In this document: positions 8,675 through 10,650 of the stretch, in pieces
How positions within the stretch are numbered: the first letter of the stretch is position 1
How the letters are laid out: each line of letters begins with the position of its first letter
Virus record (IMG/VR): IMGVR_UViG_3300044712_000982
Location: 1-21,372 of that record
Source: a virus
Direction: 5' to 3' (one strand)
Length of the DNA stretch: 21,372 bases
Made by a program: the position numbers and the translations under genes
The notes under the pieces: generated by a model
The model's input: only the letters and a program-made list of their open reading frames with translations
What the model was told of the DNA's origin: nothing
The model's database searches: none

Positions 8675-8759
8675 GCACTTCCGGTGCGAAGCCACCTCGG
8701 GTACTTCAAACTCCAAATTTGACCCATTCCCGAACCGGCAACCTTGACCTCGGAGGCGC
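8675..8759 (+). ncRNA. Y RNA-like unit 1, with an apical tRNA-Trp(CCA)-like anticodon stem-loop
   Basis: The 5' and 3' ends pair. GGTGCGAAG/CTTGACC Ro-type helix. Inner TCAAA-CTCCAAA-TTTGA (8706-8722). Lies upstream of Ro60. Confidence 0.75.
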
Positions 8760-8774
8760 AACAACTTCATACAC

Positions 8775-8845
8775 GCACCTTCCCGGTGCGCAGGTCCGGA
8801 CTTCTTCCGCTTGAAAAAAGCCGGACCACTTTGATCTCGGGAAGG
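8775..8845 (+). ncRNA. Y RNA-like unit 2, apical loop containing CTTGAAA (tRNA-Ser(UGA)-type anticodon loop)
   Basis: CCTTCCCG/CGGGAAGG terminal stem; GGTGCG/TTGATCT; GGTCCGG/CCGGACC inner stem. Confidence 0.75.
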
Positions 8846-8858
8846 AACGACATCGGGT

Positions 8859-8999
8859 GCGTGCCCGGTGCGAATGTCTGGACTTCTTCTCCTTTTAAGA
8901 GGGTGGTTGCGGGTTCGAGTCCCGCCGGTGACCTCGGTCGCTGTAGCTCAATGGCAGAGCGCCAAACGAAACGCCAGGCAGACTTGATCTCGGGCACGC
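8859..8999 (+). ncRNA. yrlA: YrlA-type Y RNA with a circularly permuted tRNA-Lys(UUU)-like domain
   Basis: GCGTGCCCG/CGGGCACGC stem and GGTGCGAA/CTTGATCT helix. T arm GCGGG-TTCGAGT-CCCGC (8909-8925), then a loop-closed 7-bp acceptor (8926-8943), then TA plus D arm GCTC-AATGGCA-GAGC (8944-8960). T-before-D order next to Ro60 defines YrlA. Confidence 0.9.
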
Positions 9000-9010
9000 T
9001 CACCAACGCC

Positions 9011-9045: not shown

Positions 9046-10650
9046 GTGTCCAAATTCAACCGTCCCGGAACGCGCGTAGCCACCGGCAGTGGACCGATCG
9101 TCGCCGAGCGTACCCCGTCAACCGTCACGCACGAGGGTGGCGCCGGATACCTCCGCGATACCAAGAGTGAGCTGTTCCTTCTCGCGGTCAGCAACATGGT
9201 CGGAGAGAAGACCACATACGAAACGGCCGGCGACCGCGACGATCGGTACGCCACCCTGGTCCGGAAGGTGGCCGTGGATGACCCGGCGTGGATGCTCCAG
9301 TTCCTGCGCTGGCTCCGCACCGACGGCAACATGCGTTCGGCGTCACTCGTCGGTGCCGCGGAGTCGGTCAAGGCGCGCCTCGACGCGAAGCTCCCGTCGA
9401 TCCCCGCATACGAGGTTTCCGGATTCACGACGGACCGCGGCGTCGAGCGGACGATGATCGAAGTGGTGTGCCAGCGCGCTGACGAGCCGGGCGAGATGCT
9501 GGCCTACTGGACGTCGCGGTACGGCCGGAACCTGCCGAAGCCGGTCAAGCGCGGACTCGCCGACGCTGCGGCGCGGCTGTACACGCCGTACGCCCTACTC
9601 AAGTACGACACCGTGTCGCACGGAGTCCGGTTCGCCGACGTGCTGGAGTTGGCCCACGTCACCGGCACACACCCGTCGATCAAGGGGACGGAGCAGGGCG
9701 CGCTATTCCAAGCCGCGCTGGAGCGACGCCACGGCCGCGCCGAGATCACCCCGGTTCCGATGCTGCTGGCGAACGCGGCGCTGCGGAAGGGTGCCGCCGA
9801 GGATCCGTCGGTGCTGCTGGATGCGCAGCGGCTGCGCGAGGCCGGCATGACATGGGAGGACGTCCTCTCGCTTGCCGGACCGAGGTTCGACAAGGCGCGG
9901 CTGTGGACCGCCCTGATCCCATCGATGGGCTACATGGCGCTGTTGCGGAACCTGCGCAACTTCGACGAGTCTGGCGTGCCCGACGACGTAGCGCTCGGCG
10001 TCGCCGCGCGACTCGCAGACCCGGCCGAGGTGGCCAAGTCGAGGCAACTGCCGATGCGGTTTCTGTCCGCGCACAAGGCCGTGTCGTCGCTGCGGTGGGG
10101 CCACTACCTGGAGCAGTCACTCAACCACTCGCTCGGAAACGTGCCGACCCTCACCGGACGCACGCTCATCCTCGTGGACGTGTCCGGGTCGATGTCCTGG
10201 TCAATGTCGGACCGGTCGGAGCTCAACCGCGCCGAGTCGGCCGGGATCTTTGCGTCGGCGCTGGCGCTGCGGGCCGAGAACCCGACCATGGTGTGGTTCA
10301 ACGGCGTCTCCGGTCAGATTGCCGTGCCGAAGGGTGGCGCACTACTGCGGGTCGCACGGTCGATTCCACAGCCCGATGGCGGCACCTATACGGCGAACGC
10401 GCTGCGCTGCTGGTACGACGGGCATGACCGGGTCATCGTCGTCACGGATGAGCAGTACCACGGCGACAACCCGTCCGGCGCGATCCCGCAGTCGACTCCG
10501 ATGTATACATGGAATCTTGCTGGCCACCGGGCCGGCTCGACCCCGACGACGGCGAACCGGATGACATTCGGGGGGCTCACTGACGCGATGTTCCGACTGA
10601 TTCCCCTGGTCGAGTCCGGGCGTTCGGGGGTGTATCCCTGGCAGTCCTGA
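9046..10650 (+). CDS. rsr: Ro60 ortholog (TROVE plus vWA domain RNA-binding protein)
   Basis: 534 aa with TROVE motifs THEGGAGY, ELFLLAV, GNMRS, LLKY, MTWE, MGYMALLRNLRNF and RQLPMRFLSA; vWA MIDAS LILVDVSGSM...GGT...VVTDEQ. Confidence 0.95.
   Translation: MSKFNRPGTRVATGSGPIVAERTPSTVTHEGGAGYLRDTKSELFLLAVSNMVGEKTTYETAGDRDDRYATLVRKVAVDDPAWMLQFLRWLRTDGNMRSASLVGAAESVKARLDAKLPSIPAYEVSGFTTDRGVERTMIEVVCQRADEPGEMLAYWTSRYGRNLPKPVKRGLADAAARLYTPYALLKYDTVSHGVRFADVLELAHVTGTHPSIKGTEQGALFQAALERRHGRAEITPVPMLLANAALRKGAAEDPSVLLDAQRLREAGMTWEDVLSLAGPRFDKARLWTALIPSMGYMALLRNLRNFDESGVPDDVALGVAARLADPAEVAKSRQLPMRFLSAHKAVSSLRWGHYLEQSLNHSLGNVPTLTGRTLILVDVSGSMSWSMSDRSELNRAESAGIFASALALRAENPTMVWFNGVSGQIAVPKGGALLRVARSIPQPDGGTYTANALRCWYDGHDRVIVVTDEQYHGDNPSGAIPQSTPMYTWNLAGHRAGSTPTTANRMTFGGLTDAMFRLIPLVESGRSGVYPWQS

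What the first reader, a model, noticed from the sequence alone, without database searches (positions are those of the whole stretch)
8887..8961. YrlA retains a complete circularly permuted tRNA-Lys(UUU), opened at position 26/27 with the anticodon arm intact
The order read is: anticodon arm 5-7-5 (8887-8903), 5-nt variable loop TGGTT, T arm (8909-8925), 3' acceptor strand CGGTGAC, a 4-nt linker CTCG, 5' acceptor strand GTCGCTG, U8A9, D arm (8946-8960), G26. All tRNA arms are present with canonical lengths. Characterised YrlAs, as I know them, keep the D, T and acceptor arms and continue into the Ro-binding stem in place of an anticodon loop. The closed acceptor end cannot be aminoacylated, so this would be an unchargeable full mimic and a possible evolutionary intermediate from tRNA to Y RNA. 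A less likely alternative is processing and ligation into a mature tRNA, as for permuted tRNA genes. TGGT (8904-8907) can also pair with GCCA (8961-8964), so an alternative fold exists.
Basis: partly seen in the sequence, partly recalled or inferred. Interest (0 to 1): 0.8.

Follow-up and report, generated by a model that had tools for sequence, protein, structure and literature searches.

The report
Phage Y RNA mimicking a whole tRNA
Next to a soil phage's Ro60 gene lies a known kind of small RNA (YrlA) whose tRNA look-alike part includes an anticodon arm built from two separate stretches of the RNA, a design shared by about 60 relatives but not described in the papers I could read.

Summary
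The sequence elements are all at the stated coordinates, and the re-permuted sequence is called tRNA-Lys(UUU) by ARAGORN. The RNA is a YrlA-type Y RNA (8859-8999) just upstream of rsr/Ro60 in a complete 106-kb actinophage genome.

Two parts of the reading need correcting.
- **Break point.** Covariation in 39 to 105 related YrlAs shows the outer two anticodon-stem pairs are G8903-C8962 and G8902-C8963, formed with the strand after the D arm. They are not U8887/U8888 pairing with G8903/G8902. Only C8889-C8891 / G8899-G8901 and the 7-nt loop form a local hairpin. The arm is composite, and the permutation opens at 28/29, not 26/27.
- **Lys identity.** 63 of 105 relatives share the design and keep U33, R37 and A38, but carry 26 different triplets.

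The hairpin is routine in actinobacterial and actinophage YrlAs. M. smegmatis YrlA appears to have it; Chen 2014 called such hairpins "V". "Unchargeable" is unsafe, because M. smegmatis YrlA, also with a 7-bp acceptor, is cut by RNase P and gains CCA in vivo.

Verdict: a known RNA family with a structural variant I found undescribed. It most likely acts as a whole-tRNA mimic tethering Ro60 to a tRNA-binding partner. This scan has noted other permuted YrlA-like RNAs elsewhere, but none of those shown describes this composite arm.

The parts
8859..8999 (+). Whole YrlA-type Y RNA (ends approximate)
   Evidence: My covariance model R1 matches 8861-9000 at 129.8 bits. MFE fold with paired ends.
8861..8867 (+). 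Lower Ro60-binding stem, 5' strand; pairs with 8991-8997
   Evidence: 7 pairs, 100% of cells paired in 39 sequences, 4 pairs with double changes.
8867..8876 (+). GGUGCGAAUG, the clade's version of the Ro60-contact motif GNCGAA(N)G
   Evidence: Nearly invariant in alignment A2. Motif defined in Chen 2014.
8875..8881 (+). Upper Y stem, 5' strand; pairs with 8974-8980
   Evidence: 7 pairs, 91% of cells paired, 6 pairs with double changes.
8882..8888 (+). 5' single-stranded linker ending in the invariant CUUC motif (8886-8889).
   Evidence: CUUC is invariant in all 39 sequences, including YrlAs without the hairpin. U8887/U8888 show no covariation with 8903/8902.
8889..8901 (+). Cis hairpin: C8889-G8901, U8890-A8900, C8891-G8899 (tRNA 29:41, 30:40, 31:39) with loop CUUUUAA 8892-8898 (32-38)
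   Evidence: Pairs 32:43 (GC16/CG15/UA2) and 33:42 (AU24/CG7/GC3) covary. Among 63 relatives: U33 59, R37 62, A38 61.
8902..8903 (+). G42 and G43, which pair in trans with C8963 (28) and C8962 (27)
   Evidence: Columns 45:115 are 100% paired with 19 double changes; 46:114 are 95% paired. 0 of 10000 shuffles reach the observed count.
8904..8908 (+). Variable loop UGGUU (44-48); U48 pairs with A15
   Evidence: Levitt pair columns 51:100 are TA23/CG16, 100%.
8909..8925 (+). T arm GCGGG UUCGAGU CCCGC
8926..8943 (+). 7-bp acceptor stem closed by CUCG. The predicted RNase P site is between G8936 and G8937
   Evidence: 7 pairs, 95% of cells paired, 6 pairs with double changes. The cleavage site is inferred from M. 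smegmatis YrlA.
8944..8961 (+). U8, A9, D arm GCUC AAUGGCA GAGC, G26
8962..8963 (+). C27 and C28, the trans partners of G8903 and G8902
8964..8973 (+). 3' single-stranded linker back to the Y stem
   Evidence: No conserved pairing found in the all-column scan.
9046..10650 (+). rsr, the Ro60 orthologue (534 aa, TROVE domain)
   Evidence: Pfam PF05731 E 5e-18. PHROG 850 RNA-binding protein E 4e-44.
8779..8847 (+). YrlB-like Y RNA (same handle, no tRNA body)
   Evidence: R1 match at 49.3 bits over the model ends. Fold z-score -3.7.
8675..8759 (+). Third Y-RNA-like unit with the same 5' and 3' handle motifs
   Evidence: Read from the sequence and folded. It is not among the R1 matches listed in the window.

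Best explanation
This is a YrlA-class Y RNA of an actinophage. Its paired ends carry the Ro60 (Rsr) docking site. Its middle folds as a circularly permuted, complete tRNA body.

The anticodon arm is composite. Positions 27-28 (C8962, C8963) come from the strand leaving the D arm and pair with G8903 and G8902. Positions 29-31 (C8889-C8891) come from the strand entering from the Ro60 stem and form a 3-bp hairpin with G8899-G8901, capped by a 7-nt U33...A37-A38 loop. If stacked, the two pieces give a 5-bp stem, so the tRNA is opened at 28/29 and hangs from the Ro60 handle by two single-stranded linkers.

Shown here: the sequence elements, the covariation of all helices, and the recurrence in 60 of 63 relatives that have this hairpin.

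Inferred:
- It does not decode. It serves as the effector module that lets the Ro60 ring engage a tRNA-recognising protein.
- It is handled by tRNA enzymes. By analogy with M. smegmatis YrlA, RNase P probably cuts at 8936/8937 and CCA is added.

The UUU triplet is one of many and is probably not a Lys identity signal.
For: - Context: rsr is 47 nt downstream. Rfam YrlA matches at E 1.3e-7. The genome is a complete 106-kb phage with 32-33 ordinary tRNAs, including its own Lys(ttt).
- An unbiased all-column scan of the MAFFT alignment A2 picks out 45:115, 46:114, 32:43, 33:42 and 15:48, besides the known helices.
- The count of structure pairs for the composite model: 95.5% of cells paired, 24 pairs with double changes, 0 of 500 shuffles as high, slid controls 37-45%.
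- Of 63 relatives with the hairpin and a 7-nt loop, 60 have both trans pairs, 123 of 126 cells Watson-Crick. The cis outer pairs give 27 of 126 Watson-Crick cells.
- Slide control: 45:115 scores 1.00 against at most 0.51; the cis outer pairs score 0.85-0.87 against 0.85-1.0.
- An independent metagenome set repeats the pattern.
- All 32 re-permuted relatives are called tRNAs, with many different isotypes.
- M. smegmatis YrlA, with a 7-bp acceptor, is cut by RNase P and gains CCA in vivo (Chen 2014, PMC4201824).
- The canonical partner identities for tRNA tertiary contacts are present in the window sequence: U8-A14, A15-U48, G18/G19 with U55/C56, C13-G22-G46 (read).
Against: - The nearest-neighbour energy model does not favour the composite arm for this single sequence.
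- RNAalifold predicts neither the hairpin nor the trans pairs.
- Coaxial stacking of the two pieces is inferred, not shown.
- The match is below Rfam's gathering score.
- The effector is unknown, even for the characterised YrlAs.
Confidence: 0.8

Rival explanations
1. One reading: a self-contained cis anticodon arm (5 bp, 8887-8891 with 8899-8903), the tRNA opened at 26/27, and C8962/C8963 unpaired. It might also exist as a second conformer that exchanges with the trans pairs.
For: The cis hairpin is possible in this sequence and scores 2.5 kcal/mol better than the composite in the energy model. 48 of 63 relatives could form both outer cis pairs. ARAGORN accepts this permutation. tRNA finders use this hairpin when they call 'tRNAs' inside the VanLee and GiJojo YrlAs.
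Against: The U partners never vary and belong to a CUUC motif that is also invariant in YrlAs without the hairpin. The pairing is no better than slid controls. 15 of 63 relatives cannot form both pairs, while 60 of 63 form both trans pairs, almost all Watson-Crick. Sequences with C at position 42 mismatch U but match a G after the D arm.
Confidence: 0.1
2. Anticodon-loop decoy or sensor. The displayed anticodon stem-loop, with its freely varying triplet, could bait enzymes that recognise anticodon loops, such as anticodon nucleases, toxins or modification enzymes. Ro60 and its partners would then capture, degrade or report on them.
For: The loop frame (U33, R37, A38) is conserved while positions 34-36 take 26 different values. 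The phage invests in tRNA supply, with 32-33 tRNA genes. An earlier first-reader note on this same window (e1-5629283) proposes the decoy idea. The first Y unit also carries a 5-bp, 7-nt-loop hairpin.
Against: The same design is equally common in bacterial chromosomes of Micromonosporaceae, Streptomycetaceae and Nocardia, so it is not a phage-specific counter-defence. The YrlB-like units of relatives have UUC...GAA hairpins with loops of varied length that are not anticodon-like. Variable triplets also fit plain neutrality. No nuclease or toxin partner lies nearby.
Confidence: 0.08
3. A permuted tRNA gene that is processed and ligated into a working tRNA-Lys(UUU).
For: All tRNA parts are present and a 7-bp acceptor could be opened by RNase P. 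Wang 2018 raised this possibility in general terms.
Against: The phage already encodes tRNA-Lys(ttt) and tRNA-Lys(ctt). It has no RtcB, PF09414-type RNA ligase or CCA-adding enzyme. By inspection there is no bulge-helix-bulge motif at the junction. Relatives carry triplets that are, to my knowledge, unusual for bacterial tRNAs, such as GCG, ACU and AGG. The discriminator would be C, whereas bacterial tRNA-Lys uses A73 (my knowledge). The ends are instead conserved as a Ro60 handle.
Confidence: 0.02

Closest known systems
Mycobacterium smegmatis YrlA (Chen et al. 2014, PMC4201824)
   Same: It lies upstream of rsr and is Rsr-bound. It has the T arm, 7-bp acceptor, D arm order and a total length of about 147 nt (here about 141). 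Its published 5' probe, reverse-complemented, reads CCA CUUCUAA UGG AA UGGUC: the same 3-bp hairpin, 7-nt U33...A37-A38 loop, two further bases, then a 5-nt variable loop.
   Different: The published text labels stem-loops in this position 'V' (variable arm) and does not describe the trans pairs or the loop as anticodon-like. I could not fetch the genome to check its positions 27-28. Its triplet is UCU, not UUU.
Salmonella Typhimurium YrlA (Rfam RF02553 consensus; crystal structure 6CU1, Wang et al. 2018, bioRxiv 10.1101/312249)
   Same: The same family topology, T and D arm sequences, variable loop and tertiary pairs. The first anticodon-stem pairs are formed in trans between the strand before the variable loop and the strand after the D arm.
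   Different: There the trans stem continues for more than 10 bp into the Ro60 module. There is no cis hairpin and no anticodon loop ('YrlA lacks the anticodon loop'; consensus). Its acceptor has 6 bp and is not cut by RNase P. The window RNA scores only 40 bits against that model.
Circularly permuted tRNA genes of red algae and some archaea (Soma 2007; Chan 2011, as cited in Wang 2018)
   Same: The 3' half precedes the 5' half, the acceptor end is closed in the primary transcript, and all tRNA parts are present.
   Different: Those are cut at a bulge-helix-bulge motif and ligated into decoding tRNAs. Here the junction is a conserved Ro60-binding stem with long single-stranded linkers, the triplet is not conserved, and the phage encodes no ligase.
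Tandem (dimeric) tRNA transcripts, proposed ancestors of YrlA (Sim and Wolin 2018, as cited in Wang 2018)
   Same: The order matches: anticodon arm, variable loop, T arm and 3' acceptor of tRNA 1, a short spacer, then 5' acceptor and D arm of tRNA 2. Real tandem tRNAs in phage arrays match my model from the anticodon hairpin through the D arm at 24-44 bits. The window's 8900-8960 region matches the Val-His tRNA junction of the same phage at 76% identity.
   Different: In YrlA both flanks pair into a Ro60 handle and the acceptor halves pair with each other. No isotype-specific kinship was found: the re-permuted RNA is 78% identical to the phage's tRNA-Lys against 74% for four other tRNAs.

Membership tests
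YrlA (Y RNA-like A, Rfam RF02553) | Encoded next to an rsr/Ro60 (TROVE) gene | tested here: met
   rsr at 9046-10650, Pfam TROVE E 5e-18. The RNA ends 47 nt upstream.
YrlA (Y RNA-like A, Rfam RF02553) | 5' and 3' ends pair into a stem carrying the Ro60-contact motif GNCGAA(N)G | tested here: met
   Two covarying helices, 8861-8867/8991-8997 and 8875-8881/8974-8980. The motif here is UGCGAAUG, which departs from the published pattern at its first base; the clade consensus is GGUGCG(A/C)A.
YrlA (Y RNA-like A, Rfam RF02553) | tRNA-like module in the order T arm, closed acceptor stem, D arm, with the 15:48 Levitt pair | tested here: met
   The 15:48 columns are TA23/CG16.
YrlA (Y RNA-like A, Rfam RF02553) | Reaches Rfam's gathering score (69 bits) | tested here: not met
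   40.3 bits. Every relative tested also scores below the cut-off (29.6-47 bits), so the Rfam model under-covers this actinobacterial and actinophage clade rather than excluding this one RNA.
YrlA (Y RNA-like A, Rfam RF02553) | Bound by Rsr in vivo | not testable with these tools
   Needs immunoprecipitation or gel shift.
Genuine (decoding) tRNA | Contiguous cloverleaf with a free acceptor end | tested here: not met
   ARAGORN finds no tRNA in the native window. The acceptor is closed by CUCG. Only the permuted sequence scores as a tRNA.
Genuine (decoding) tRNA | Anticodon conserved among orthologues | tested here: not met
   26 triplets among 63 homologous loops.
Permuted tRNA genes processed by splicing endonuclease | Bulge-helix-bulge motif at the junction of the 3' and 5' halves | tested here: not met
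   By inspection: linkers of 7 and 10 nt flank a 7-bp helix, with no 3-4-3 bulge-helix-bulge. The phage has no RtcB or RNA ligase.

The most novel reading that the evidence does not exclude
In a large group of actinobacterial and actinophage Ro60 particles, the Y RNA displays a complete anticodon stem-loop whose triplet is under diversifying selection. This would make the particle a programmable bait or sensor for anticodon-directed nucleases, toxins or modification enzymes. After RNase P opening and CCA addition, it could even be a two-piece tRNA that is aminoacylated.
Probability: 0.1. Interest if true: 0.8.

Novelty: new variant of a known kind. Interest (0 to 1): 0.5.

Why it matters
The partner that YrlA's tRNA-like domain recruits to Ro60 is still unknown. 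Published work pointed to the tRNA elbow and treated YrlA as lacking an anticodon loop.

In a large actinobacterial and actinophage subgroup, the whole tRNA, anticodon loop included, is mimicked through a conserved two-strand construction. This widens the list of candidate partners to proteins that read the anticodon arm. It also gives a concrete picture for the dimeric-tRNA origin model (order 29-76, spacer, 1-28).

It explains why tRNA finders and GenBank records call spurious tRNAs inside these RNAs. It shows too that Rfam's YrlA model misses this clade at its threshold.

Tried and rejected
- **TGGT/GCCA alternative fold** (8904-8907 with 8961-8964): 72% of cells paired, the first pair mostly broken and no real covariation. 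Rejected.
- **Shifted 6-bp hairpin** CUUCUU/AAGAGG from the MFE fold: it stems from the CUUCUUCUC repeat of this sequence, and I saw no equivalent in the relatives I inspected.
- **RNAalifold on A2** predicted neither the hairpin nor the trans pairs. Nearest-neighbour energies cannot decide between the models.
- **Isotype kinship:** the re-permuted RNA is only marginally closest to the phage's tRNA-Lys, 78% against 74% for others. No evidence of recent capture.
- **U36/A37 as a strict rule:** it held in the first set but not in the metagenome set. Dropped.
- **YUAY pairing with the loop's UAA:** no covariation seen by eye. Dropped.
- **Sim and Wolin 2018 review:** not held. Chen 2014 supplements are not held.
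- **Promoter and terminator consensus scan:** nothing found.
- **RNA repair and processing genes:** no RtcB, CCA-adding enzyme or PF09414 RNA ligase in the phage. Neighbouring ORFs gave no RNA-repair function.

Full report
**What is in the sequence**

The window is the first 21.4 kb of a complete 106,285-bp phage genome with direct terminal repeats. Position 9046-10650 encodes a 534-aa TROVE-domain protein, the Ro60 orthologue Rsr.

Upstream lie three units that share a CCGGUGCG(A/C)A 5' motif and a UUGA(U/C)CUCGG 3' motif. The last unit, about 8859-8999, holds the finding.

The sequence 8937-8961 + 8887-8932 is called tRNA-Lys(ttt) by ARAGORN. The native window yields no tRNA.

Rfam's YrlA model matches 8900-8968 at 40.3 bits (E 1.3e-7), below its gathering score of 69.

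The phage has 32-33 ordinary tRNA genes at 97-100 kb, including Lys(ttt) and Lys(ctt). Its Rsr is 40-46% identical to those of Streptomyces phages of the BRock/GiJojo type, Gordonia phages and Arthrobacter phage Atuin. It is 55-57% identical to Rsr of Micromonosporaceae genomes.

**Relatives**

I collected rsr loci from three collections:
- IMG/VR: 16 loci.
- GTDB genomes: 36 loci.
- Metagenomes: 60 loci.

I also fetched eight GenBank phage loci and the Myrna and Phabba tRNA arrays.

A plain MAFFT alignment of 39 rsr-proximal YrlAs (A2) was not fitted to any structure. On it, the two Ro60-handle helices, the T arm, the 7-bp acceptor and the D arm are 91-100% paired, with many double changes. 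The Levitt pair 15:48 is TA in 23 sequences and CG in 16.

**The anticodon arm is composite**

I scanned all column pairs of A2 without a model. The scan recovered the known helices and four further pairs.
C8889-G8901 is invariant C-G.
- The other two join G8902 to C8963 (GC19/AU13/CG5/UA1/GU1, every sequence paired) and G8903 to C8962 (GC30/UA3/AU2/CG2).

These last two are tRNA pairs 28:42 and 27:43. They are made with the strand that follows the D arm and G26, as in the Rfam YrlA consensus.

They belong to a CUUC motif that is invariant even in YrlAs with no hairpin. Their apparent pairing is no better than with partners slid by 1-3 columns: 0.85-0.87 against 0.85-1.0. The trans pairs score 1.00 and 0.95 against at most 0.51 and 0.79.

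Sequences with C at position 42 mismatch the U but match a G after the D arm.

The composite model gives the best whole-structure counts: 95.5% of cells paired, 24 pairs with double changes, and 0 of 500 shuffles as high.

So positions 27-28 come from the 3' side (C8962, C8963) and positions 29-31 from the 5' side (C8889-C8891). The permutation therefore opens at 28/29, not 26/27.

**How general it is**

I built a covariance model from A2 (R1). Across all loci it found 105 distinct YrlA-type RNAs (tally).
- 63 have the 3-bp cis hairpin with a 7-nt loop.
- Of these, 60 have both trans pairs, 123 of 126 cells Watson-Crick. The cis outer pairs give 27 of 126 Watson-Crick cells.
- The loop keeps U33 (59/63), a purine at 37 (62/63) and A38 (61/63).
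- Positions 34-36 take 26 different values. UUU occurs twice.

All 32 relatives that I re-permuted are called tRNAs by ARAGORN, as Thr, Ile, Met, Arg, Lys, Asn, Ser, Glu, Pro or Leu. The Lys(UUU) label is therefore an accident of this phage, while the tRNA-like frame is conserved.

A second class has a 4-5-bp all-trans stem, and several of these carry a small UUC...GAA hairpin. It includes L006, L007, L009, L042a, L021 and members from Streptomyces phages and Atuin.

The Rfam consensus, based largely on proteobacteria, has a long trans stem and no hairpin. The whole actinobacterial clade scores below Rfam's threshold.

**What was already known**

Chen et al. [quoted passage not shown]

Their M. 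smegmatis YrlA-5' probe, reverse-complemented, reads CCA CUUCUAA UGG AA UGGUC. That is the same hairpin, 7-nt loop, two further bases and 5-nt variable loop. The best-characterised actinobacterial YrlA therefore appears to share the design, although I could not fetch its locus to check positions 27-28.

Wang et al. 2018 state that Salmonella YrlA "lacks the anticodon loop", and they cite the dimeric-tRNA origin model.

In the papers I could read, I found no description of the hairpin as an anticodon stem-loop mimic or of the two-strand stem. The Sim and Wolin review was not available.

**Function**

What is shown is structure and conservation. The rest is inferred.

The handle should bind Rsr. 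The module should fold as an L-shaped tRNA, because the canonical tertiary partners are all present.

M. smegmatis YrlA also has a 7-bp acceptor. It is cut by RNase P and acquires CCA in vivo. The closed acceptor here is therefore probably opened at 8936/8937, and 'cannot be aminoacylated' is not safe. Whether it is charged is unknown.

Maturation into a real tRNA is unlikely:
- The phage has its own Lys tRNAs.
- It has no RtcB, RNA ligase or CCA-adding enzyme.
- There is no bulge-helix-bulge junction.
- The flanks are conserved as a Ro60 handle.

A decoy role for the displayed loop is possible. However, the design is as common in bacterial chromosomes as in phages, and variable triplets also fit neutrality.

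**Limits**

For this one sequence, the energy model slightly prefers the cis hairpin or a shifted hairpin. RNAalifold predicts neither element. Alignments A4 and A5 are fitted to my model and lean towards it, so the key counts rest on A2. No transcript or probing data could be obtained.

**Verdict**

This is a new member of the YrlA family. It shows a widespread structural variant that I found unreported: a composite, complete anticodon arm.

Noticed in passing
L066:1204-1275 (Gordonia phage VanLee), L063:1269-1343 (Streptomyces phage GiJojo), L004:2477-2548 (Mycobacterium phage Myrna): GenBank annotates tRNA-Arg(tct), tRNA-Arg(cct) and tRNA-Asp here. Each overlaps a full-length YrlA match to my model (107.7, 56.6 and 73.1 bits). 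ARAGORN reproduces the first two calls but finds no tRNA in Myrna or Phabba. Rfam's tRNA model does not hit the VanLee one. These look like YrlA 5' halves mis-called as tRNAs.
   Followed up: partly
window 8706-8722: The first Y-RNA-like unit carries a 5-bp hairpin with a 7-nt loop, UCAAA CUCCAAA UUUGA, right after its ACUUC motif, although it has no T or D arm. YrlB-like units of relatives instead have UUC...GAA hairpins with loops of varied length.
   Followed up: partly
L004:2475-2612 and L005:2475-2613 (mycobacteriophages Myrna, Phabba): A full-length YrlA of the composite type (loop CUGUCAA) sits inside the tRNA array. A tblastn search with this window's Rsr found no Mycobacterium phage at E 1e-5, so their Ro60 partner is either very divergent or absent.
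   Followed up: no
L022, L023, L024, L027, L029, L032, L054 (Micromonosporaceae genomes), 500-1150 nt upstream of rsr: In several bacterial genomes, rsr and its Y RNAs lie directly downstream of dense tRNA arrays, as in phages. These loci may be prophage-derived or mobile islands.
   Followed up: no
G000:C1:100294-100350: The T arm, acceptor and D arm stretch of the YrlA matches the junction of the phage's own tandem tRNA-Val(tac) and tRNA-His(gtg) genes at 76% identity. The 5' acceptor plus D arm is closest to tRNA-His.
   Followed up: partly
L069:729-1481 (Streptomyces phage Kela): In this phage an annotated RNA ligase gene lies immediately upstream of the Ro-like gene. The window's phage has no RtcB or PF09414 RNA ligase.
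   Followed up: no
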